In this document: in pieces, positions 2,345 through 36,491 of the stretch
Position numbering within the stretch: the stretch's first letter is position 1
Layout: each line of letters opens with the position of its first letter
IMG/VR virus record: IMGVR_UViG_3300049982_000268
Coordinates: 1 to 40,569 of that record
DNA length: 40,569 nt
Reading direction: 5' to 3' (one strand)
DNA from: a virus
Taxonomy: Duplodnaviria > Caudoviricetes
Notes under the pieces: generated by a model
What the model was told of the DNA's origin: nothing
Databases searched by the model: none
The model's input: the letters and a program-made list of their open reading frames with translations, nothing else
Program-made: the position numbers and the translations under genes

Positions 2345-5300
2345 TCAGATGAACAGGTCGGTGGAGTCGGTGGCTTCGCCCGCGAGAGCCGCGTCCAGCA
2401 GCTCGTAGTGCGTGCCCTTGATCCTCAGGGCGGCGAGGTTACGCGCGCGGCGGCCGTCGGTCTGACCCTCGGTGATCAGCTCCTGCTGCTCGGCGAAGTC
2501 GAACTGCTTGGCGGCCGTCTTCTCCAGGTGGGCCTTCGCGGCGGCGGCGATGTCTTCGTTGCCGTCGCCCTCGGGCTCCGTAATCAGGTCCTGCCCGGCG
2601 GCCGACTTCTGGAAGGAGGCCACGATGTCCGCCAGCCGGTCGCCCTCGGCGGCGGCGTGGTAGCTGTTCGGCAGCGACGACCCGCCGTCGAGCAGGTGGA
2701 TGTTCGCATCGCTGTCCGGCACCAGCTCGGCGGCAGCGGGCGGGTTGTCCGGAATCGGGTCCAGGTCGTCGTGGGTCATCTCGGCCGGGCGCATGGTGGC
2801 GTTCTCGTCGCCGTAGGCCACCGGCAGCGCGGGCTCGGGCTGCTCGTGCAGGACCGCGTCGAAGCCGAGCGACGGCGTCAGCGGCTGCGGGTTGGCGTTC
2901 AGGTTGTTCCAGTTGTCCGGATCCTCCCCGGCCGCCCAGCCGGTGCTGCCCGGGTTCGTGGTGTTCGAGTGCGCGGGCTCGCTCGTGCCGCGTCCGGGCT
3001 GCGGGTTCGTGTTCGAGATCGGGTCCCAGGCGCTGGCCTCCTTCGTGGCGTCCAGCGAAGCCTTGCCGATCTCCTTCCATGGAGTGTGCGCCTTGACCTC
3101 GTCGCGCAGGTTCGGGATCTTCCGGGCGTGCTCGGGATCCCACCAAGCCGCCTGCTCGTGGCAGTCTCCCTTGGGGTCATCGGGATTCGGCACCACGCGA
3201 CCGTCCTTCATGGACAGGTCCTTTTCGGACGGGATCACCACGACATGGCCCTGGTACACCCCGTTCGGGGAGGACCAGACGTGCTTCACCGCGCCGTGCA
3301 GCGGGAACTCCTGTCCGACCTCCTCTTCCCACTCGCGGATGCCCGCGTGCAGGCTGGAGCGGTCACCGTCCTCGTGGTGGCCGCCCGGGAACTCCCAGGT
3401 GCCCGCCGCCGGGTCCTTCTCGTCGTCGAGTCCGCGCTGGAGCATCAGCACGCGACCGGTGTCGTGCGCCTTGAGCGCGATGCCGGAAACGCTCGGGCCG
3501 GGCGGCTCGGCCTTGGCGGCCTCGTGGTGGTGCTCGTGGCCCTCGCCACCCAGTGGCGCGCCGCAGTGCGGGCAGCGGTGGTGCTCGACGGCTTCCACGC
3601 CGATGAAGCCACCACAGTGCGGGCAGCGCCGCTCGCCGTCCTCGTGGTGCTCAGCAGTCTTCTGGGGCAGCTCCTTGACCGCCTCGACCTCATCCCCCTG
3701 ACCCTCCAGGTGGGCGACCGCGCGCTGGGCGTGCTCGTCACAGGTCGGGATGTAGGCCATGTGCTCGGCCCACATGTGCGCTTTCGTAGCCGGTTCGTCG
3801 CAGTACTTGCAGGTCTGCGGGCCGAGCTTGCCCGCGTCCTTCCACAGCAGTACGGCCGTACGGTGACGGACTCCGGCACGCACCAGGCTGCCGATGACCT
3901 CGGCTGGGTCGGCGTCCTCCGCGCGCAGCCGGGCCACCATCGAATCGACCAGCGACCCCTCGTACGGCCGGGCGAAAACGTGCTCGCCCGCGTCCGGGTC
4001 GTACCGGACGATGGTGCGCTCGCGCGAGGTCGACTCGGAGGGGTGGACCTCCTTGCCGAACATGCCCTGGCTCTGGGCCTCGAACTGGAGCGCCAGCGCG
4101 TGCGAGCACTTCCGGCCCTCGAAGCGCTGGAAGCCGGGGCTGCGCTCGAAGGCGTAGGCGGCCCACTTGCACCCACAGGTCCAGTCGGCGACCTTCTTCG
4201 TGCCGGGCCGGTAGACCAACAGGGCCTCGTAGGTGCCGTGGTCGCCCTGCACGGTGCCGCCGATGCCGTCGTTCGAGGCGATGACGATGGTCACGCCACC
4301 CTCGGACCGGATCCGCTTCGCCTTGCGCTGGACGTCGGCCCAGGACGCGGTGATGTGGAAGCCCAGGTCCCTGTCCCGAGCAGCGGCCCTCAGGATGCGA
4401 CCGGGCTCTGGGTCCTTGCGGGCGGCGATCCTCTGGTGCCCGCTCGCGGAACAGAAGCCGTCGTCGTGGTGGGTCAGCTCGTGCTGGAAGGCCTCGTCCT
4501 CGTCGTCGGTGTCGAACCCGCAGCCCAGGTGGGCGCCCGCCAGCGCGGAGTATTTCTCCAGCGACTTGGGCAGGTGCTTGAACTGCGACGGCGCCCACTC
4601 GGCCTCGGGGAAGCCGTGCTTGTCGGCGTCGTAGACGTGCCCCTCGACGTGCTTGTCCCCGCGCAGCATCGCGGCGGCGGTCCGGTGGTGACCGTCCAGC
4701 GTGTAGTAGTCACCGCCGTGCTTGACGAAGATCGGCCGGTCGTTGGCCGGGTAGTTCGGCCGCCCGCTGCCGGACTTGTGCTCGGGGTTGCTCAGGTACG
4801 TGTCGACGCCGCGCTTCGTCACGCGCGGCTGGGTCGCGTAGACCTTCGGCCCGTGCAGCGGAACCGGGCCGATCTCGCCCTTCTCGTGCCAGTGCCTGAA
4901 GTCGTTCTCGCGCCCGCTGTAGCCCCGGAACTCGTGCACGCCCGCGTGCTGCCCCACGGCCTGCTCGTCTTCCCAGTCCGGGTCGTCGCCGTGGTTGCCG
5001 AAGTTCGTCTTCTCGCCCTCGACGTACCCGGCAAAGCCCACGCGCTTGGTCGGGATCGTCTTGGTGTCGTTGTCCTCCGTGACGGAGCCCTTCGCCTGCA
5101 TCAGCGCCATCGGGCCGGGCTCGGAGATCGGGCAGACCTGCTGCTGCCACGGCGTCTCCCAGGGGCACGGGCCCCGGTCCTGCGGGATCGCCAGCGAGAC
5201 GGCCGTGGAGTCGCCCGGAAAGGTGCAGCGAGCCTCACGGCGCCAGGTGCACCAGTCGTGCCCGGCCAGCGCCGCCGTGGTGCTCACCCGCGAGTCGAAG

Positions 5301-5914
5301 TCGATGAAGTCGTTGATCCCGGCCTGCCCGGGCGCCCCGGCGCCGGGAGACGCGCCCGAGCGCGGGTCGACGATCGTCTTCGGGTGGTTCGAGGGGTCGC
5401 CGATCAGCTCGGGCGTCCACTGCATGCCCGGGTGCGCCGACATCGTGCCGTTGCAGGTGGCGCAGGTGGCCTGCCGGACCCGGCCGTTGTCGGTCTTGTC
5501 GGTGAACTCGGTCCCGCCGCAGTACGAGCAGCTGGACGGCTGATCGTCCCCGCCCGGCTCGTCATGGTCCTCGGCGTCGGCTTCCTGGCGCTCCTGGCTC
5601 AGCGCGGCCGTGAAGCTCATCTTCCCCGGGTCCGGCCGGTCGTCAATCACGGTGCCCAGCTCGGGGTAGTCGTCGGTGGCCAGGTGCACCCCAGCGGCAG
5701 ACCGACTGGTCGGCATCTTGGTCAGCATCGACGCGGAGTAGTTGCCGCCGCCCATGCCGTGATCCAGCGTGACCACGTAGTTCTCGGCGTTCGCGATCGG
5801 CCCGTCCTGGACCTCGTCGACCACGCCGGGGTAGCCGTCCACGGTCATGACGCGCTCACCCGGCTGGAAGTCCCAGTAGGTCTCGCTGGTGATGGCCTCG
5901 CGGCGCAGGTTCAT
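2345..5914 (-). CDS. Large polyvalent head-associated protein (Zn ribbons, ParB/Srx-like, SWIM Zn finger, NUDIX hydrolase)
   Basis: ParB-like ATQ...PIFVKHGGDYYTLDGHHRTAAA; SWIM-like CGCKW...CSH; NUDIX box PGGHHEDGDRSSLHAGIREWEEEVG; several CxxC pairs; lies immediately after the portal gene. Confidence 0.8.
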   Translation of the reverse strand: MNLRREAITSETYWDFQPGERVMTVDGYPGVVDEVQDGPIANAENYVVTLDHGMGGGNYSASMLTKMPTSRSAAGVHLATDDYPELGTVIDDRPDPGKMSFTAALSQERQEADAEDHDEPGGDDQPSSCSYCGGTEFTDKTDNGRVRQATCATCNGTMSAHPGMQWTPELIGDPSNHPKTIVDPRSGASPGAGAPGQAGINDFIDFDSRVSTTAALAGHDWCTWRREARCTFPGDSTAVSLAIPQDRGPCPWETPWQQQVCPISEPGPMALMQAKGSVTEDNDTKTIPTKRVGFAGYVEGEKTNFGNHGDDPDWEDEQAVGQHAGVHEFRGYSGRENDFRHWHEKGEIGPVPLHGPKVYATQPRVTKRGVDTYLSNPEHKSGSGRPNYPANDRPIFVKHGGDYYTLDGHHRTAAAMLRGDKHVEGHVYDADKHGFPEAEWAPSQFKHLPKSLEKYSALAGAHLGCGFDTDDEDEAFQHELTHHDDGFCSASGHQRIAARKDPEPGRILRAAARDRDLGFHITASWADVQRKAKRIRSEGGVTIVIASNDGIGGTVQGDHGTYEALLVYRPGTKKVADWTCGCKWAAYAFERSPGFQRFEGRKCSHALALQFEAQSQGMFGKEVHPSESTSRERTIVRYDPDAGEHVFARPYEGSLVDSMVARLRAEDADPAEVIGSLVRAGVRHRTAVLLWKDAGKLGPQTCKYCDEPATKAHMWAEHMAYIPTCDEHAQRAVAHLEGQGDEVEAVKELPQKTAEHHEDGERRCPHCGGFIGVEAVEHHRCPHCGAPLGGEGHEHHHEAAKAEPPGPSVSGIALKAHDTGRVLMLQRGLDDEKDPAAGTWEFPGGHHEDGDRSSLHAGIREWEEEVGQEFPLHGAVKHVWSSPNGVYQGHVVVIPSEKDLSMKDGRVVPNPDDPKGDCHEQAAWWDPEHARKIPNLRDEVKAHTPWKEIGKASLDATKEASAWDPISNTNPQPGRGTSEPAHSNTTNPGSTGWAAGEDPDNWNNLNANPQPLTPSLGFDAVLHEQPEPALPVAYGDENATMRPAEMTHDDLDPIPDNPPAAAELVPDSDANIHLLDGGSSLPNSYHAAAEGDRLADIVASFQKSAAGQDLITEPEGDGNEDIAAAAKAHLEKTAAKQFDFAEQQELITEGQTDGRRARNLAALRIKGTHYELLDAALAGEATDSTDLFI

Positions 5915-16163: not shown

Positions 16164-16445
16164 TCACTGATCGGCGGTCGCAGCTTCGGGTTGCTCCTCG
16201 GTGGCCTTCTTCAGCTGCTCGCGCAGGCTCTCGATGTCCTCGGGGTCGAGGATGTTCTCGATGTAGCCCACGCTCACCGCCTCGGCGCGGTTGCTCACGC
16301 CGAGTTTGTCGAAGATGTGACGCGCGTGGATCTTCGCGTTGTCCACCTTCGTCTCGATCTGGCGGGCGATCTGTTCGTTGCTGAGTCCGGCGGCCATGAG
16401 CCGGAAGACTTCCCCCTCGCGGTCGGTCAGGGTGCGGATCGTCAT
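16164..16445 (-). CDS. Stand-alone LuxR-family HTH transcriptional regulator
   Basis: LTDREGEVFRLMAAGLSNEQIA...KIHARHIFDKLGVSNRAEAV is a classic GerE/LuxR HTH. Confidence 0.9.
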   Translation of the reverse strand: MTIRTLTDREGEVFRLMAAGLSNEQIARQIETKVDNAKIHARHIFDKLGVSNRAEAVSVGYIENILDPEDIESLREQLKKATEEQPEAATADQ

Positions 16446-18889: not shown

Positions 18890-19276
18890 TCATGGGCGGG
18901 GGAACTCCACTCCGGGGAACGCGCCGGGCTTCCCCTGTTCGGCGGGGCGCAGCTCGTAGGCCCATCCCTCGTAGCTGCCGTAGGCGGACGACAGGCAGTG
19001 GATCTTGCGCCAGTACCGGCAGCGAGCGTGTTCCAGCATCTCGAACAGCGCGTCGGCGAGCTTGTTGACCGCCTCGTCCGTGATCTTGTAGGCGTCTTCC
19101 TGGTAGCGCGGGTGCGCGGCCTGGTAGAGCAGGTCGTCGAGGTCGGTGGGCAGGTCGTCCCAGTCCTCGGAGAAGACGACCTTCAGAGCTTCGTGCGGAT
19201 CGAGCGTGCCCCGCACGAGGATCTCGCCCTCGTCCATGACGTCCACGCTGTAGCGCGGCGCCTTACTCCCCGGCAT
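18890..19276 (-). CDS. Hypothetical protein
   Basis: ORF overlapping the Thg1-like gene end; GAGG RBS before ATG 19276. Confidence 0.65.
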   Translation of the reverse strand: MPGSKAPRYSVDVMDEGEILVRGTLDPHEALKVVFSEDWDDLPTDLDDLLYQAAHPRYQEDAYKITDEAVNKLADALFEMLEHARCRYWRKIHCLSSAYGSYEGWAYELRPAEQGKPGAFPGVEFPRP

Positions 19277-20039
19277 CGGGCACCTCGTCACCGAGCAGCC
19301 ACTGTCGCGCGCCCGAGGCGCCGAAGTCCGGGGCCGTCTCGAAGACCCACCGGCGACGTTGCGCCTCGCCGACGTGCTCCTGCTGGTCGCGCTTGTCGGT
19401 GTAGCGGACCTCCTCGGTGCCCCAGCGGGGGACGACGATCGTGCCCCGCTTGAAGCGCGGGTCCTCGTCGTTCCAGTTCACGCCGTGCTCGGCCCAGAGC
19501 ATCTCCTGCATGACGCCGGTGCTCTTGCCGTGCAGCTGCTTGGTGCTGAAGTACGCCTGGGCGAGCATCGAGATCGAGTTCCGGATGGCGTCCCGCTGGC
19601 GCCAGAGGAAGTAGTTGATCACTTCCAGGTCCTGCGGGATCGTGAAGGCCCGGGCGTCGAAGAAGGCCAGGCGGCCCGCCGGACGCAGCTCGTTGAACTT
19701 CGCCGTGGCGAAGCTGGCCGCGATCGAGACGATCTTCTGGAGGTTCCCGTCGAACCACGCCTGGGTCTGCCGGGTGGCGAAGTCGGTCAGCAGGATGCTG
19801 ATCTCGTCGGACTGGGTGTAGCCGACGCGGGCGCCCTGGATCTCCTGGCAGAGGAACCGGGTGGTCTCGGCCATGTCGTCCATCAGCGTCTTGTCGTACG
19901 GCCGCTCCAGGCCCCGGGTGTAGGTGTGGAACGCCTTGCCGTCGATCCGGATGAGCGTGTGCGTGCGCCGGGGCAGCTCGATCTGTGTCCGGCGCTCGTA
20001 GTCGCCCTTCATCCGGTCGCCCATCGGGTCCTTGCTCAC
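19263..20039 (-). CDS. thg1: tRNA(His) guanylyltransferase / Thg1-like protein (3'-5' polymerase)
   Basis: Diagnostic motifs IRIDGKAFH, YTQSDEIS, WFDGNLQKIVS, FDAR, YFLWRQRDAIRNSI, GVNWND...FKRG. Confidence 0.93.
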   Translation of the reverse strand: MSKDPMGDRMKGDYERRTQIELPRRTHTLIRIDGKAFHTYTRGLERPYDKTLMDDMAETTRFLCQEIQGARVGYTQSDEISILLTDFATRQTQAWFDGNLQKIVSIAASFATAKFNELRPAGRLAFFDARAFTIPQDLEVINYFLWRQRDAIRNSISMLAQAYFSTKQLHGKSTGVMQEMLWAEHGVNWNDEDPRFKRGTIVVPRWGTEEVRYTDKRDQQEHVGEAQRRRWVFETAPDFGASGARQWLLGDEVPDAGE

Positions 20040-21424: not shown

Positions 21425-21805
21425 TTAACGGTGAACGACCGGCAGCTCGATGTCGCGGTGGTGCACCTCGACATCGGTCCGGTTCCAGTACAGGCGCAGC
21501 TCGTGCGCGATGAAGTCGGCGATCACCACGGAGCGGTGGCGCCCGCCCGCGCAGCCGATAGCCACGCTGGTGTCCCCGAACTCGTACAGCCCGGCCAGCA
21601 GCTTGGCCGTCTTGACGACCAGCGCGATGGCGCCCGGGGTCTCCATGACCACCGAGACCACGCGCGGGTTCTTGCCGGTCAGCTCCTTGAACTCGGGGTC
21701 CGGGCTGAAGTGCGGATCCCGCAGGTCGCGCCGCAGGTCGAAGGTCAGCAGGGCCTCCGGCGGCCCGATGGGATGCAGGTAGCCGAAGGAGATGAGGGTG
21801 ATCAC
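21425..21805 (-). CDS. RapZ (YhbJ) C-terminal-like RNA-binding domain protein
   Basis: ISFGY...DLR...LRDPH...LTG...VAIGCAGGRHRSV...VHHRD; lacks the N-terminal kinase domain. Confidence 0.85.
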   Translation of the reverse strand: MITLISFGYLHPIGPPEALLTFDLRRDLRDPHFSPDPEFKELTGKNPRVVSVVMETPGAIALVVKTAKLLAGLYEFGDTSVAIGCAGGRHRSVVIADFIAHELRLYWNRTDVEVHHRDIELPVVHR

Positions 21806-22961: not shown

Positions 22962-22999
22962 AAAGCCCCCGGTGGCAGGGGGTTCCACCGGGGGCTTTT
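22962..22999. terminator. Intrinsic terminator closing the tRNA/ncRNA-DUF397 unit
   Basis: 14-bp inverted repeat AAAGCCCCCGGTGG/CCACCGGGGGCTTT with T runs on both strands. Confidence 0.75.
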
Positions 23000-23010
23000 C
23001 AAATCAGACG

Positions 23011-23217
23011 CTACACCTTCGGGCGGTCGTACTGACCCGCCTTCGCCGAGAGGATGAACGCGTCCCACTCGGCGTCGGTGAAGCTGTGGACCGGGCTGGC
23101 GGCGCCGAGCTTGCTGTCCCGCAGGAAGACGCCGCCGGTCTGACTCAGGTCGACCTCGACGCAGTTCCCGCCGATGGGCTCGCCACAGCGGTTCGGCTTC
23201 TGCCACTGGTGCTGCAT
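23011..23217 (-). CDS. DUF397 domain protein
   Basis: WQKP...GGNCVEV...VFLRDSK...FTDAEWDAFI...KAGQYD; AAGGAG RBS. Confidence 0.9.
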   Translation of the reverse strand: MQHQWQKPNRCGEPIGGNCVEVDLSQTGGVFLRDSKLGAASPVHSFTDAEWDAFILSAKAGQYDRPKV

Positions 23218-23299
23218 GTCGTGCTCCTTGCTGTTGTGCTCCGGCCGCCCAGGTGCTGCCGGAGCGCGCACAGGTGATCAATCGCAGGCCGCGAAGCCG

Positions 23300-23416
23300 C
23301 CCTGTCCGGAGACATCCTCCGGCTCTACGCCCTGTGCGCTGGTGAGTCCGAGACGACACCGCTTCCCCGCAGGGGCTGGAGTCGGGTCTGGTGGGACGCC
23401 TATCACCGTCAGCGCC
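23300..23416 (-). ncRNA. Putative structured RNA module B
   Basis: Non-coding, with several complementary stems; shares ordered sequence blocks with 23885-24031. Confidence 0.4.
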
Positions 23417-23448
23417 ACGACGTCGTCCAGCTGGTCATCTCGGTTCGG

Positions 23449-23527
23449 GGTGATGCCGAGGCTCGAACTCAGCAGGAGAGGCCTCTCCAGCAGGCCGACG
23501 GGATTGAACCGCTCTTCCTGCACCACC
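23449..23527 (-). ncRNA. tRNA-like element with two T-loop hairpins
   Basis: Closing stem GGTGGTGC/GCATCACC; T-loops TTCAATC and TTCGAGC; D-arm-like GCCT-GCTGGAG-AGGC. Confidence 0.45.
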
Positions 23528-23648
23528 AGGCGCGGGGGCCGCCTACTACGACCGTGCGGGATCTGGCCCCAGGAGAGCCGCCACGCGGATCACTGGAGCT
23601 GGCCTCGCCGCACCCGAGCGGAGTAAGGGTTTCCGCAGGCACCGCCGC

Positions 23649-23717
23649 CGTCCTCCAGGGCATCGAACCCCGCCTTTCCCGACGGGGCCAACCCGCCAGG
23701 CCTGCTCACCACGGACG
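23649..23717 (-). ncRNA. tRNA-like element or pseudo-tRNA
   Basis: Acceptor-like CGTCCGT/GAGGACG; T-arm CGGGG-TTCGATG-CCCTG; no D stem; 9-bp arm with loop TTGGC. Confidence 0.5.
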
Positions 23718-23775
23718 TTAGGCACCTCCCGGTGTTCCGGCAGGTCGTCCTTGAGCTGAGGACGTCTGTACTGCG

Positions 23776-23848
23776 TGGCCCCCGTGGGTCTCGAACCCAC
23801 GACCCTCCGATTAAGAGTCGGATGCTCTACCAGCTGAGCTAGGGGGCC
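23776..23848 (-). tRNA. tRNA-Lys (CTT)
   Basis: Full cloverleaf; anticodon arm TCCGA-CT-CTT-AA-TCGGA; no encoded CCA. Confidence 0.95.
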
Positions 23849-23884
23849 GGGTGCGCGCGAGTGTTTCATGAGCCAACGAAAAGA

Positions 23885-24062
23885 CCGTCCGGAGATCTCC
23901 TCCGGCACCATGCTCGCGCGCGAACCAGGCTCAGGCGCTCCGTGCCAGCACTGTGCGCCATCTGTGCGGGATCGCTACCTCTGGTCCAGCTCTTCCCCCG
24001 CACGGGGTTATCCCGGGGTTCCGGGCCTGGTCTGTCCGACCGGGGCAACGGAGGCCGGTCGG
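23885..24062 (-). ncRNA. Putative multibranch structured RNA module A
   Basis: Stems CCGACCGG/CCGGTCGG, ACCAGGC/GCCTGGT, GTGCGGG/CCCGCAC, GGCGC/GCGCC and CCGGA/TCCGG. Confidence 0.5.
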
Positions 24063-24106
24063 GGTGTTCTTAAGTCCTCCAGGCGTGCACGCCCTGTTGC
24101 CACTTG

Positions 24107-24178
24107 CAGGGGCGGAGGGGATCGAACCCCCGACCGGCCGCTTTGGAGACGGCTGCTCTTCCGCTGAGCTACACCCCT
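24107..24178 (-). tRNA. tRNA-Trp (CCA)
   Basis: Cloverleaf; anticodon arm GCCGT-CT-CCA-AA-GCGGC; followed by CAA, not CCA. Confidence 0.95.
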
Positions 24179-24190
24179 AGGTAGAGAAGA

Positions 24191-24250
24191 CGTGGCCCGG
24201 GGAGTCACACCCCGCCTGCCCGGAACGGGCTGCTCGTCGAGCTGGCCACG
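24191..24250 (-). ncRNA. 60-nt mini-cloverleaf tRNA mimic
   Basis: Perfect acceptor CGTGGCC/GGCCACG; D arm GCTC-GAC-GAGC; arm GCCCG-TTC-CGGGC; T arm CGGGG-TGTGACT-CCCCG. Confidence 0.6.
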
Positions 24251-24418
24251 CCACACCGTCCTCTGCGCAAAGGACTCGGGCTGTCACCGCCCACGATCGT
24301 GCCGACCGCCGCACTCACTCGTCAGGCCTCTCCGGGCTGATCCTCCAGGCTTGCGCACGAGAGGGGCCCTTCAGGACAAGACGAGCTTGTGCTGGGCGCC
24401 GGATGCCTCCGGCACTTG

Positions 24419-24490
24419 TAGCGCGTACGGGAGTCGAACCCGTGTCCCCCGGCTGAGAACCGGGGATCCGTTCCACTGGACCAACGCGCC
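24419..24490 (-). tRNA. tRNA-Glu (CTC)
   Basis: Cloverleaf; anticodon arm CCCGG-TT-CTC-AG-CCGGG. Confidence 0.93.
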
Positions 24491-24680
24491 CTAGCACCCC
24501 TTCCTGGGCCTGACGGGACGCCAGGAAGGGGTTCGGCTCGGTATGCCTCTGGCACGAGGGTGCTGACGTTGCCGCCCGCACCGAGCCGGTACTGCTTCGC
24601 ACCCGAAGCCTCCTCCTCGACGTGGCCCCGAGCCGTTTCACTTGGAGAGGCGGCTCGTAACGGGGCTCATTCTGAGAGCT

Positions 24681-24760
24681 TGGTGCGACCCGGGGTTTTC
24701 GATCGTCCCTGCTTCTACCAGGGGCGAGCGCAGGAAGCCGGGGCAACCTGGGCGGGTCGT
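24681..24760 (-). ncRNA. Structured element ending in ACCA
   Basis: CGACCCG/CGGGTCG closing stem followed by C-ACCA; internal CCAGG/CCTGG and TCCTGC/GCAGGG pairings. Confidence 0.35.
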
Positions 24761-24789
24761 TATAAAGGATAGGACCGCCATCATCCTTG

Positions 24790-24863
24790 CGCTCCAGACG
24801 AGATTCGAACTCGCGGCCCTCCGCTCGACAGGCGGACGCTCTAACCATCTGAGCTACAGGAGC
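24790..24863 (-). tRNA. tRNA-Asp (GTC)
   Basis: Cloverleaf; anticodon arm TCCGC-CT-GTC-GA-GCGGA; one acceptor-stem mismatch. Confidence 0.92.
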
Positions 24864-24983
24864 TTGTGCAGTTTTGCGGCCTTGGGCACCGCTGCGCGGG
24901 GCGGGACGAAACCCATCTTCCCCCGCACTTCGCCGGGCGCGACCCCGACTCAGCGGTGGCACCTCACAGTGCCCTCGGCTCAG

Positions 24984-25057
24984 TGGCGGGAACCGGATTT
25001 GAACCGGCGACCTTCGGATTATGAGTCCGACGCGCTACCAAACTGCGCTATCCCGCT
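24984..25057 (-). tRNA. tRNA-Met (CAT), initiator-like
   Basis: Anticodon arm TCGGA-CT-CAT-AA-TCCGA; A1:C72 mismatch; T-loop TTCAAAT as in tRNA-fMet. Confidence 0.92.
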
Positions 25058-25105
25058 CCGGCCCGGCCCTCCCCGGTTCGAAGCCCGGGGAGGCGGCCGT
25101 GGGTG

Positions 25106-25134
25106 ATGCTACTCGAAGGGGTAGGGGGCTGCAA
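25106..25134 (-). promoter_or_regulatory. Promoter/operator of the tRNA-ncRNA block
   Basis: TTGCAG-N17-TAGCAT; TACTCGAAGGGGTA at 25110-25123. Confidence 0.65.
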
Positions 25135-25146
25135 CTGCCTTCCGGG

Positions 25147-25212
25147 TCAGGTGCCCTTGCGGATGTCCTTGACCCACTCTTCGATCATCTTGTCGAGCTT
25201 GTCGAAGCCCAT
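25147..25212 (-). CDS. 21-aa peptide MGFDKLDKMIEEWVKDIRKGT
   Basis: GGAGGTG RBS within the start motif, own promoter, and GC3-rich codons. Confidence 0.6.
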   Translation of the reverse strand: MGFDKLDKMIEEWVKDIRKGT

Positions 25213-25349: not shown

Positions 25350-25628
25350 CTATTCCCAGTCCTGGATGATGTCCAGCGCACGCTGGGTGACGTCCAGGTA
25401 GCTGAGCAGGTTCGGACGCTCGCTGCCGCGCTCGGAAGCGGCCCAGTTCGCCGCAGCAGCGGCCTCCTCCAGCGTGCAGGTGCGAGAGGTGGACTCGTAG
25501 ACCGTCCAGGCGATCGGGCCCAGCAGAGCGACGTTCAGGGCCGGGTCCGCACCCTGTCCCTGCCGGTCTCGCTCGGCCTTGGCCAGCTTCTCCAGCGCCG
25601 TGACCCGGCTCACGATCTCGACGGCCAT
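25350..25628 (-). CDS. Hypothetical protein
   Basis: MAVEIVSRV..., TGATG coupled. Confidence 0.65.
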   Translation of the reverse strand: MAVEIVSRVTALEKLAKAERDRQGQGADPALNVALLGPIAWTVYESTSRTCTLEEAAAAANWAASERGSERPNLLSYLDVTQRALDIIQDWE

Positions 25629-26317
25629 CAGTCGGCCGCCATGAGCTGCCGGACACGCTGCGCGTCGAGGAACTTCCAGATGTCCCAGTCGTGCCGGGCG
25701 TCGGCCAGCGCGTCGTGCTCGGCGGCCTCCTGCTTCGGGAAGTCCTTGTGCGAGACCCCGAGGTCGTGCGCGTAGTGCTGGAGGTCGTGGGTGAACATCG
25801 GCAGGTGGCTCGGCCGCTTCACCATCGGGCCCCAGAGCTGCATCAGGCACACGTGGTCGTAGGCACCGTAGTTCGCCCACAGCTCGACCTCGCCGACGTC
25901 GTCCATCTCGTCGTCGTGCACGCCGTGGTCGAGCCGGTCCAGGAAGTACTTCCGGACCTCGTTGGCGATGACCCACTTCGGCTTCACCTCGGGGTCGGTC
26001 AGGTCCAGCTCCCAGTCGAGCAGGTTGCCGTCGTGGGAGTACCTGTCGGAGTTCGGCCGGAAGTACGGCCCGCGCTCGACCTGAGCGGCCTTGGCCAGCT
26101 GCTCGGCCACCCGGCGGTCGTTGACCAGCGGAAGGTGCCTGATCACGTGCTTGGCCAGGAAGTCGTGCTCGGAGATCCGGCGGTGCAAATCCTCGTCGGT
26201 CTGGATCTCCGAGAAGACCGCGTAGTACTCGGCGAAGTCCTCGGAAGCGATGCCGATGGAGATCGGCACGATGGTCTCGCCGTCCTCCAGAAACTCGAAG
26301 TCGATGAAGTGCTTCAT
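25628..26317 (-). CDS. DEDDh 3'-5' exoribonuclease, Rv2179c/RNase AS-like
   Basis: FIDFEFLEDG...ISIGI...EYYA, ELWANYGAYDHV...QLWGPM...LPMFTHDL, HDALADARH. Confidence 0.9.
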   Translation of the reverse strand: MKHFIDFEFLEDGETIVPISIGIASEDFAEYYAVFSEIQTDEDLHRRISEHDFLAKHVIRHLPLVNDRRVAEQLAKAAQVERGPYFRPNSDRYSHDGNLLDWELDLTDPEVKPKWVIANEVRKYFLDRLDHGVHDDEMDDVGEVELWANYGAYDHVCLMQLWGPMVKRPSHLPMFTHDLQHYAHDLGVSHKDFPKQEAAEHDALADARHDWDIWKFLDAQRVRQLMAAD

Positions 26318-35500: not shown

Positions 35501-36223
35501 TCAGCTCACCGCGCTCAGGTCGAGGAAGTAGGCGCGCACGCCGACCAGCCAGTTCTGGGCGAGTCGCTCGTCCACGATCATCGGCAACGCCGGGCGGTAG
35601 CTGTCGAAGATGTGCTCGGCGGTCGCGAGCTTCTCCCGGGCGACGCGCAGGCCCTCGTTCGGGTCGTCCAGCACCAGCTGGCCGAAGGCGTGGTACTCCT
35701 CCGGATTGGTCAGCCGGACGCTCATCTCGCCCCGGACGAACAGCTCGGTGCCCTGGGTCAGCAGGCGCATCAGGTGCCGGGCGTGCTTGGCCACCCGGTT
35801 CTTCGTGTCCGAGGAGAACGTCCCGTCGCCGCGCCGCTCCATCTTCCGGAACTGGCTGGTGGCGTAGCCCAGGTAGGCGTTGCGCACCGCCGTGGCGCCG
35901 AGCAGGTCGTGGCGCAGGCTGATCAACTCGTCGCCGAACAGCCGGAACTTCTCGGTGTAGCAGTCCTCGGGCAGCCACAGCAGCTCGGTGACCGTCGGGT
36001 TGGCCTTCAGCGCCAGCGCGAGGTACTTGCCGATCTCGTGGACGGTGATGTCGGGGTCGGTGCGCACGTCGCTGGCGGTCTTGTCGCGCGGCGGGTGCAA
36101 GCCGAGGACGTCCCGGGTCGGCGCGATGGCCACCGAGAGGGTGTCCACGTCGGACTCGGGGGTCGCCAGCCCGTAGGCGGTCGAGCCCACGGTGCCGGTG
36201 AGGATCGGGGTCCAGTTGTTCAC
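35501..36223 (-). CDS. Pol-beta superfamily nucleotidyltransferase (RlaP/YcgL-like)
   Basis: GSTAYGLATPESDVD signature; HEIGKY...KANPTVTELL; YLGYA; KHARHLMRLL. Confidence 0.88.
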   Translation of the reverse strand: MNNWTPILTGTVGSTAYGLATPESDVDTLSVAIAPTRDVLGLHPPRDKTASDVRTDPDITVHEIGKYLALALKANPTVTELLWLPEDCYTEKFRLFGDELISLRHDLLGATAVRNAYLGYATSQFRKMERRGDGTFSSDTKNRVAKHARHLMRLLTQGTELFVRGEMSVRLTNPEEYHAFGQLVLDDPNEGLRVAREKLATAEHIFDSYRPALPMIVDERLAQNWLVGVRAYFLDLSAVS

Positions 36224-36333
36224 TTTCGCCTCCAGGGGCGGGTCACGAGTACGGCGATGAGAAAGATCAGGCTCATCGCCACCAACACCACGAGGGCGAA
36301 GTTGAGGATGAGCCTGATCGCCGGGTCGGTCAC
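36220..36333 (-). CDS. 37-aa single-TM protein
   Basis: Manually translated VTDPAIRLILNFALVVLVAMSLIFLIAVLVTRPWRRK; GTGA coupling at both ends. Confidence 0.65.
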   Translation of the reverse strand: MTDPAIRLILNFALVVLVAMSLIFLIAVLVTRPWRRK

Positions 36334-36491
36334 TCCCCGCCCCGGCGCAGGGCCCGGCGGGCCTGAGCGCAGGAGCGGCGGGCAACGCGGCGCTTGATCG
36401 CCCGGCGCTCGCCGGGGCGGAAGCTGAGGTGCTTGTGCTCGGAGGTGAGCGCCTGGACCTCGTCACCGCTGATCATCGGAATGCTCTTCAT
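36330..36491 (-). CDS. Small basic phage protein (53 aa)
   Basis: Manually translated MKSIPMISGDEVQALTSEHKHLSFRPGERRAIKRRV...; start motif at 36499. Confidence 0.7.
   Translation of the reverse strand: MKSIPMISGDEVQALTSEHKHLSFRPGERRAIKRRVARRSCAQARRALRRGGE

What the first reader, a model, noticed from the sequence alone, without database searches (positions are those of the whole stretch)
23280..25100. tRNA operon interleaved with tRNA mimics and unknown structured RNAs
Seen: five canonical tRNAs take up only ~365 nt of a ~1.8-kb stretch with no credible CDS, in an otherwise gap-free genome. The spacers contain long complementary stems, T-loop hairpins and repeated blocks. The block has an operator-bearing promoter (25106-25134) and a terminator after the DUF397 gene. 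Known: phage tRNA arrays can host large ncRNAs (GOLLD, ROOL, tmRNA, theta ribozymes), but I recognise none of those consensus sequences here. Inference: a polycistronic RNA in which tRNA processing releases several novel ncRNAs, for example decoys for anticodon nucleases or tRNA-binding factors, or regulators.
Basis: partly seen in the sequence, partly recalled or inferred. Interest (0 to 1): 0.85.

Follow-up and report, generated by a model that had tools for sequence, protein, structure and literature searches.

The report
Phage tRNA operon carrying new RNAs
The tRNA gene cluster of this soil phage also holds three tRNA look-alikes without anticodons and two folded RNAs that match no Rfam family, one of them conserved right behind a tRNA in many other phages; host tRNA-cutting enzymes likely release them as small RNAs, which may serve as decoys against host defences.

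Summary
Observation confirmed. The minus strand carries five tRNAs and no coding signal between them. A promoter with a phage-wide operator precedes the block and a hairpin terminator follows DUF397.

The spacers are separate cassettes. Three are tRNA-like elements (TLEs) with a 7-bp acceptor stem, a T arm and the N73-C74 end of real tRNAs, but no anticodon loop.

RNA E (115 nt) is a four-way junction supported by covariation. It occurs in cultured Streptomyces and Gordonia phages and many uncultured ones. In 35 of 36 loci it starts exactly behind a tRNA or TLE. Here two TLEs flank it where other phages use real tRNAs, and a relative swaps out exactly this slot.

RNA F (70–90 nt) occurs twice here and in seven other viral contigs, away from tRNAs. 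Neither RNA matches Rfam 15. Seven further folded cassettes were seen only in close relatives.

Inferred model: RNase P and a 3'-processing nuclease cut at tRNAs and TLEs and release stable RNAs. Expression and function are untested. Anticodon-nuclease decoys fit poorly. Precedents are T4 RNAC/RNAD, GOLLD/ROOL and plant mitochondrial t-elements.

The parts
25106..25134 (-). Promoter, -35 TTGCAG / 17 nt / -10 TAGCAT, with palindromic operator at 25109-25124
   Evidence: 7 minus, 0 plus sites, all with the palindrome; 27 sites in G002, one directly upstream of its tRNA operon
25058..25100 (-). Leader hairpin with a T-loop-like loop
   Evidence: one G-C to U-A double change and one break in relative X4
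24983..25057 (-). tRNA-Met(CAT), A1-C72 mismatch
24864..24982 (-). Cassette S1, branched rod; close relatives only
   Evidence: z -1.8
24789..24863 (-). tRNA-Asp(GTC)
24607..24769 (-). Cassette H, multi-stem; close relatives only
   Evidence: two double compensatory changes and two breaks in X10; no distant hit
24491..24590 (-). Cassette S2b, two long hairpins
   Evidence: z -5.5; present in X3
24418..24490 (-). tRNA-Glu(CTC)
24251..24417 (-). Cassette S3a, hairpin series
   Evidence: no distant hit
24190..24250 (-). TLE-A, 61-nt mini-cloverleaf: 7-bp acceptor, 3-nt D loop, 3-nt loop in place of the anticodon loop, T arm, U73-C74
24106..24178 (-). tRNA-Trp(CCA)
24034..24105 (-). Cassette S4a, identical in G002
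   Evidence: z +0.2
23924..24033 (-). Cassette S4b, 110 nt, replaced by about 32 nt in G002/L006, X2 and X10
   Evidence: z -2.3
23853..23922 (-). RNA F, copy 1
23775..23848 (-). tRNA-Lys(CTT)
23648..23764 (-). TLE-B, 117 nt: 7-bp acceptor, D arm with long insert, 9-bp stem with a variable 5-nt loop, T arm, G73-C74
23531..23646 (-). RNA E, four-way junction (P1-P4) with likely L2-L4 loop pairing; starts at C74+1 of TLE-B
23448..23527 (-). TLE-C, 80 nt: 7-bp acceptor, 4-nt loop in place of the anticodon loop, T arm, C73-C74
23347..23446 (-). Cassette G, closed multi-stem; close relatives only
23264..23340 (-). RNA F, copy 2
23011..23217 (-). DUF397 gene (68 aa), last gene of the unit
   Evidence: PF04149 E 1.9e-13; GC3 0.96
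22962..22998 (-). Intrinsic terminator hairpin, 14-bp arms

Best explanation
This is a cassette array of five tRNAs, three anticodon-less tRNA-like elements and folded spacer RNAs, likely transcribed as one RNA that host RNase P and a 3'-end nuclease are predicted to cut at every tRNA and tRNA-like element, releasing RNA E and its neighbours as stable small RNAs that would most likely act in trans as tRNA-shaped protein decoys.

Shown: the order of cassettes, the promoter/operator and terminator motifs, the acceptor + T-arm + N73-C74 anatomy of the TLEs, the covarying fold of E, its fixed register behind a tRNA or TLE, and cassette swapping at those borders.

Inferred step 1: one transcript runs from about 25100 to 22962. 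Step 2: the TLEs work as punctuation marks like real tRNAs; TLE-B would set the 5' end of E and TLE-C its 3' end. Step 3: E folds with tRNA topology (P1 closing stem, P2 and P4 loops pairing like D and T loops, variable P3). Step 4, the weakest: E and the CCA-completed TLEs bind host proteins that read tRNA shape or acceptor ends, such as end-modifying toxins or sensors, and so protect translation. My odds: about 0.8 for steps 1-2, 0.7 for step 3, 0.4 for step 4.
For: TLEs: a strict acceptor + T-arm finder hits 6 places in the whole window (3 of the 5 tRNAs and the 3 TLEs), 0 on the plus strand, and 0 in 500 shuffles of the 1,470 spacer nt. In the complete 155-kb relative it hits only the tRNA operon. 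All 161 distinct tRNAs that passed the finder are followed by C74, only 7 encode CCA, and all 3 TLEs follow the same rule. C74 pairs with RNase P RNA, and RNase Z cuts CCA-less precursors behind the discriminator (PMC1874595, passages). RNA E: 23 of 38 pairs have changes on both sides, 0/500 shuffles reach this, and slid controls fall from 90% to 41-49% paired. 29 of 29 distinct copies parse with P1 and P4 in register, and P1 occurs as GCGG/CCGC, GTGG/CCAC, GCGA/TCGC and CCGG/CCGG. The search patterns held no tRNA sequence, yet 35 of 36 loci have a 5-bp T stem in exact register upstream: 27 behind an ARAGORN tRNA (9 isotypes, 4 undetermined) and 9 behind a TLE (loci partly redundant). Where a tRNA follows, it starts 121-125 nt (long form) or 74 nt (short form) after C74; here TLE-C starts at 120. 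A contig in run X4 keeps both TLEs and replaces the 117 nt between them with 99 others. Loop pairing changes in concert (ACCC/GGGU, AGCC/GGCU, CUUAC/GUAGG; permutation p about 0.009 on 11 loop types). The window also encodes Thg1, RlaP and an Rv2179c-type 3'-5' exoribonuclease. Precedent for tRNA-like punctuation: PMC1920247 (passages).
Against: No cleavage site, mature end or binding partner was observed. RNAalifold recovers P3, the apical hairpin and P4 but not P1/P2, and offers another 5' pairing; P1 rests on three kinds of double change in 4 of 29 copies. The loop pairing fails on the MAFFT columns (46.5% paired); the permutation test ignores relatedness, and one cross-class pair scores above the native ones. 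E is not unusually stable (z -0.4) and has no T loop or C74 rule at its own 3' end. Short forms lack the distal half of P3 (L048, L049, L051), so its invariant internal loop is dispensable. RNA F lies far from tRNAs in 7 other contigs, so it does not depend on tRNA punctuation. Several variants in close relatives break the predicted stems of lesser cassettes. Thg1 is missing from 4 of 5 E-bearing genomes, including G002.
Confidence: 0.6

Rival explanations
1. E acts only in cis: a compact fold behind the tRNA that sets 3' processing and, once the tRNA is cut off, shields the downstream RNA from 5' decay.
For: It always starts at C74+1. In Satis-like phages it is the last element before the ribosome-binding site of the next gene.
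Against: In L037, L038, L044, L046, L047, L048, L051 and L056 a tRNA follows directly, so nothing downstream needs shielding. It is single-copy in 8 of 8 E-bearing records searched whole, while these arrays hold up to 33 tRNAs.
Confidence: 0.12
2. E is a self-cleaving ribozyme of a new class that cuts the tRNA 3' trailer, like theta ribozymes.
For: Same position as theta ribozymes (PMC10879173, passages); compact junction with invariant unpaired bases beside it.
Against: The 5' strand pairs with the extreme 3' end, which is not the nested double pseudoknot of HDV-like ribozymes. No Rfam ribozyme hit. My HDV-like descriptor found 0 hits (no positive control). C74 follows all 161 tRNAs, with or without E.
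Confidence: 0.1
3. The mimics are decoys for anticodon nucleases.
For: Phage tRNAs are proposed to evade host anticodon nucleases (PMC10264068, abstract).
Against: None of the three TLEs has a 7-nt anticodon loop, and the TLE-B loop differs at 4 positions in relatives.
Confidence: 0.07
4. E or the TLEs are Y RNAs that partner a Ro60 protein.
For: Bacterial Y RNAs mimic tRNA, occur in mycobacteriophages and can be cut by RNase P (PMC4201824, passages). 2 of 5 E-bearing genomes encode Ro60.
Against: No Rfam Y RNA hit. The GNCGAAN0-1G motif occurs once, inside S1, and not at a 5' end. The complete closest relative has no Ro60.
Confidence: 0.05
5. The spacers are decaying tRNA pseudogenes and recombination debris without function.
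For: Short blocks are repeated between spacers; seven cassettes have no distant homologue.
Against: Covariation of E over 50-98% pairwise identity, intact acceptor and T arms in all three TLEs, and F in unrelated contigs. The rival may still hold for the lesser cassettes.
Confidence: 0.06

Closest known systems
T4 RNAC and RNAD
   Same: Small RNAs of unknown role transcribed from a phage tRNA region (PMC3014915, one passage; PMC9697503, passages).
   Different: No sequence link was tested or seen. Here there are about a dozen cassettes, explicit anticodon-less tRNA-like elements, and a family (E) shared by distant actinophages.
t-elements of plant mitochondria
   Same: tRNA-like folds with a conserved T arm whose ends mark RNase P and RNase Z cuts and gain non-encoded C/CCA (PMC1920247, passages).
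   Different: Here in a bacteriophage, bounding non-coding cassettes, not mRNAs; cleavage not shown.
GOLLD and ROOL RNAs
   Same: Structured RNAs of unknown function in or near phage tRNA arrays (PMC12286853, passages). A structured RNA of about 430 nt is reported in Mycobacterium tRNA arrays (PMC5966550, passages).
   Different: E is 69-122 nt and F 70-90 nt; no Rfam match.
Theta (HDV-like) ribozymes
   Same: Begin directly at the tRNA 3' end in phages (PMC10879173, passages).
   Different: E is a closed four-way junction, not a nested double pseudoknot; cleavage untested.
Bacterial Y RNAs (YrlA)
   Same: [quoted passage not shown]
   Different: No 5' GNCGAA motif, no constant Ro60 link; the TLEs have ordinary tRNA order.
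allo-tRNAs (8/4, 9/3)
   Same: Non-canonical cloverleaves, some in phage tRNA clusters (PMC5389517, passages).
   Different: The TLEs are 7/5 and lack an anticodon loop.

Membership tests
canonical tRNA (TLE-A, -B, -C) | 7-bp acceptor stem, 5-bp T stem, 7-nt T loop | tested here: met
canonical tRNA (TLE-A, -B, -C) | 7-nt anticodon loop; ARAGORN or Rfam tRNA match | tested here: not met
   loops of 3, 5 and 4 nt; not called
t-element (tRNA-like processing signal) | T arm plus acceptor-like stem whose ends coincide with the borders of neighbouring units | tested here: met
   E starts at C74+1 of TLE-B; the cassette swap in X4 runs from C74+3 of TLE-B to the +1 of TLE-C
t-element (tRNA-like processing signal) | cleavage by RNase P / RNase Z in vivo or in vitro | not testable with these tools
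   needs end mapping or enzyme assay
T4 RNAC/RNAD-type stable cluster RNAs | encoded within a phage tRNA transcription unit | tested here: met
T4 RNAC/RNAD-type stable cluster RNAs | accumulates as a discrete RNA during infection | not testable with these tools
   needs RNA from infected cells
GOLLD / ROOL | match to the Rfam model; length of several hundred nt | tested here: not met
theta / HDV-like ribozyme | starts within 5 nt of a tRNA 3' end | tested here: met
   35 of 36 loci
theta / HDV-like ribozyme | nested double pseudoknot with catalytic C in J4/2 | tested here: not met
   the 5' strand covaries with the extreme 3' strand; descriptor 0 hits, uncontrolled
theta / HDV-like ribozyme | self-cleavage | not testable with these tools
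   needs in vitro assay
bacterial Y RNA | GNCGAAN0-1G motif near the 5' end | tested here: not met
   single internal match at 24934
bacterial Y RNA | Ro60 gene nearby | tested here: not met
   none among 61 window ORFs (the window is a fragment); none in complete G002; present in 2 of 5 genomes, in Satis about 41 kb from E
allo-tRNA | 8/4 or 9/3 acceptor branch with an anticodon | tested here: not met
   7/5 branch, no anticodon loop

The most novel reading that the evidence does not exclude
Large actinophages run a modular RNA-cassette system: anticodon-less tRNA-like elements are interchangeable cut sites that let the phage load and swap small functional RNAs, and RNA E is the first member of a widespread class of tRNA-shaped, kissing-loop RNAs (or a new ribozyme) that neutralises a host defence aimed at tRNA ends or tRNA shape.
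Probability: 0.3. Interest if true: 0.9.

Novelty: new variant of a known kind. Interest (0 to 1): 0.66.

Why it matters
Why phages carry tRNA arrays, and what the stable RNAs inside them do, has stayed open since T4 RNAC/RNAD. This locus gives two defined RNA families outside Rfam and a concrete processing rule: tRNA-like elements stand in for tRNAs at cassette borders. RNA E is carried by cultured phages (Satis, JustBecause, Kradal and others on Streptomyces; Forza on Gordonia terrae), so expression, ends, partners and knock-outs can be tested now. If E or the TLEs are decoys, they are a new RNA-based counter-defence.

Tried and rejected
Expression: no RNA holder listed. One run labelled metatranscriptomic but flagged probably DNA has a 204-nt contig over 23884-24069; not used as evidence.

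A gapped pattern for the TLE-A/B layout gave 20 viral hits, all without tRNAs and judged chance. The E pattern in bacterial genomes gave 6 hits; none scored with model R1 at E<=1. R1 found 0 of 151 Actinomycetota-group genomes, but only 23 candidates per genome were scored and there was no positive control, so a host homologue is not excluded.

Protein-anchored locus searches found nothing or only G002. Separate blastn of S1, S2, S3, S4 and F against phages or plasmids gave chance-level hits or none; the plasmid search of the whole block listed only tRNA-region hits among the 30 of 580 records shown. The last E pattern returned 4 contigs already held. 3 of 11 hits of the F pattern were only the core palindrome.

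Idea that TLE-C (C73) is a Thg1/His substrate: weakened, since G002 has TLE-C but no Thg1. An apical-loop pseudoknot in E (UGGC with GCCA): dropped, the loop base varies in L046 and L047. Resemblances to SRP, T-box, hammerhead, twister, pistol, hairpin, RNase P and tmRNA: recalled motifs, 0 hits, no positive controls.

Prior description: none of 9 answered paper searches (one search was on RNase Z) listed a paper on E, F or these TLEs. The 8,495 IMG/VR candidates of PMC10690425 could hold E or F: two zip files were unreadable, three files were too large, and the search of file 4 failed its own positive control.
Full report
Setting. The window is a 40.6-kb virus record of about 68% GC with genes on the minus strand, including a portal protein. 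Its closest held relative, G002, is a complete 155-kb phage contig that matches 23,069 window bases, nearly all in the same order, and encodes WhiB. The host is therefore likely an actinomycete. The sequence is real: run X1 covers the block without differences, but may be its source.

The observation. Five tRNAs, no other Rfam family and no coding signature were confirmed. The promoter at 25134-25106 belongs to a phage-wide class with a palindromic operator (7 minus-strand sites, 0 plus-strand; 27 in G002). A 14-bp hairpin closes the unit after DUF397. Folding energy alone is unremarkable for most spacers.

tRNA-like elements. A finder that demands a 5-bp T stem, a T-type loop and a 7-bp acceptor stem hits three non-tRNA sites, all in the block: TLE-A (24190-24250), TLE-B (23648-23764) and TLE-C (23448-23527). 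It gave 0 plus-strand hits and 0 hits in 500 shuffles of the spacers; in G002 it hits only the tRNA operon. It misses 2 of the 5 real tRNAs, which have acceptor mismatches. None of the TLEs has an anticodon loop. All 161 distinct tRNAs that passed the finder in the held arrays are followed by C74 and only 7 by CCA; the three TLEs obey the same rule. C74 pairs with RNase P RNA, and RNase Z cuts CCA-less precursors after the discriminator (PMC1874595, passages; data from B. subtilis and E. coli). Similar anticodon-less elements occur in other actinophage arrays.

RNA E. The only spacer with blastn hits in GenBank phages is 23532-23671: 7 Streptomyces phages (Satis, Kradal, Quantum, EhyElimayoE, Frankenweenie, JustBecause, Kela) and 5 records of 4 Gordonia phages. 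It is unannotated in the four records opened. Patterns without tRNA sequence found it in 6, 13 and 12 IMG/VR stretches (overlapping sets) and 14 metagenome stretches. WhiB is present in 5 of 10 carrier records tested. An alignment of 24 copies (50-98% identity) supports four helices meeting without unpaired bases, and a long P3 with an invariant internal loop. 23 of 38 pairs change on both sides and 0 of 500 shuffles reach that (this control ignores relatedness, and the structure was named by me after seeing the sequences). The single-sequence fold of the window copy gives the same four arms. RNAalifold recovers P3 and P4 but pairs the 5' end otherwise; P1 is upheld by four sequence variants among 29 of 29 distinct copies (31 loci given). 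The loops of P2 and P4 stay complementary through concerted changes (p about 0.009, 11 loop types), but this helix fails on the raw alignment columns. A 69-nt form replaces distal P3 by a short hairpin. E is single-copy in 8 of 8 carrier records searched whole.

Context of E. In 35 of 36 loci a T stem lies in exact register upstream, so E starts at C74+1: 27 times behind an ARAGORN tRNA, 9 times behind a tRNA-like element (some loci are the same contig seen twice). Here E lies between TLE-B and TLE-C at the spacing that real tRNAs show elsewhere. A contig in run X4 keeps both TLEs and swaps the 117 nt between them for 99 others; other cassettes are gained, lost or replaced at or near tRNA borders in G002, X2, X3, X4 and X10. 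This is the main evidence that TLEs and tRNAs are interchangeable borders.

RNA F. A repeat noticed is a second family: an outer stem, a conserved purine-rich junction strand, a CCGG-closed hairpin, a variable arm and a second conserved strand. It occurs twice here, twice in G002 and in 7 other viral contigs of 51-68% GC with no tRNA within 1.5 kb, often before a U tract or hairpin. The outer stem covaries but in two registers (67% paired on one). Rfam has no match. The model was built from these same sequences, so its scores are not independent.

Lesser cassettes. S1, H, S2b, S3a, S4a, S4b and G have no distant homologue in my searches. Close relatives show two double compensations in H and one in the leader, but also several breaks. 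Their status is open.

Mechanism. Most likely one transcript is cut by RNase P at each +1 and by a 3' nuclease behind each discriminator, TLEs included, as shown for plant mitochondrial t-elements (PMC1920247, passages). That would free E with paired ends. E has the arm order of a tRNA, with P2-P4 loop pairing in place of the D-T contact, and the TLEs keep exactly the half that end-reading proteins see. I therefore favour a decoy role toward proteins that read tRNA shape or acceptor ends; that actinobacteria have tRNA-end-modifying toxins is recalled, not from a call. Anticodon-nuclease decoys fit poorly. A cis-acting stabiliser and a new ribozyme remain possible. Nothing here shows expression, cleavage or binding.

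Comparison and novelty. Unexplained RNAs in phage tRNA regions are known: T4 RNAC/RNAD (PMC3014915, one passage; PMC9697503, passages), GOLLD/ROOL (PMC12286853, PMC5966550, passages), theta ribozymes (PMC10879173, passages), Y RNAs (PMC4201824, passages) and allo-tRNAs (PMC5389517, passages). E, F and the TLEs fail the tested defining features of GOLLD/ROOL, theta ribozymes, Y RNAs and allo-tRNAs. PMC10264068 was seen as abstract; PMC6687918 and PMC10652959 only as search listings. My paper searches listed no description of these RNAs. The candidate set of PMC10690425 (passages read) could contain them, since its sequence supplements could not be read. Unchecked notes of this scan report other conserved junction RNAs and cassette arrays beside phage tRNAs; they lower the rarity of the theme and are not support.

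Verdict. A real, partly conserved RNA cassette array: a new variant of a known kind, with at least one well-supported new RNA family that can be tested in cultured phages. Interest 0.66.

Noticed in passing
window 36559, 32020, 29197, 25345, 25134, 22573, 16095 (minus); G002, 27 sites: Phage-wide promoter class with a palindromic operator (CTACCC-N4-GGGTAG type) over the spacer and -10 box. The LuxR/GerE-type HTH gene at 16164-16445 sits just upstream of one site and is a candidate regulator.
   Followed up: partly
window 19263-20039, 35501-36466, 25628-26317, 21425-21805: RNA-handling genes: Thg1, RlaP-type nucleotidyltransferase, Rv2179c-type 3'-5' exoribonuclease just upstream of the array, and RapZ C-terminal domain. 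Thg1 is absent from G002.
   Followed up: partly
window 25023-25029 in run X4; L004 about 1200-1580: A relative has a 461-nt insertion in the tRNA-Met anticodon loop. In L004 the tRNA-Asp position is interrupted by an insertion of lower GC with an open frame. Both look like tRNA introns or homing elements.
   Followed up: no
L001 2376-2608, L003 2392-2560, L034 419-587, L069 2851-3017, L036 from 2574: A family of giant (167-233 nt) tRNA-like RNAs with an A-rich loop in place of the anticodon loop and a long inserted arm; not called as tRNA.
   Followed up: no
L001 3277-3371, L003 3290-3385, L007 2040-2137, L009, L034, L068, L038: A second family of 95-98-nt anticodon-less tRNA-like elements resembling TLE-C in the 3' half.
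   Followed up: partly
L036 2248-2369 and 2441-2569: Two different copies of RNA E in one array, the first divergent (53 bits) but with the same loop motifs.
   Followed up: partly
L001 vs L003: Satis and JustBecause carry different subtypes of E at the same locus (tree), suggesting cassette exchange within one phage group.
   Followed up: partly
window 25147-25212 (minus): 21-aa ORF with a strong ribosome-binding site just upstream of the tRNA promoter, with a counterpart in L006.
   Followed up: no
L001 record 85923-86144; G003 87973-88971: Ro60 (TROVE) genes in Satis and G003; no Y RNA search was made around them.
   Followed up: no
window 2345-5914: 1,189-aa protein next to the portal gene with a NUDIX domain.
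   Followed up: no
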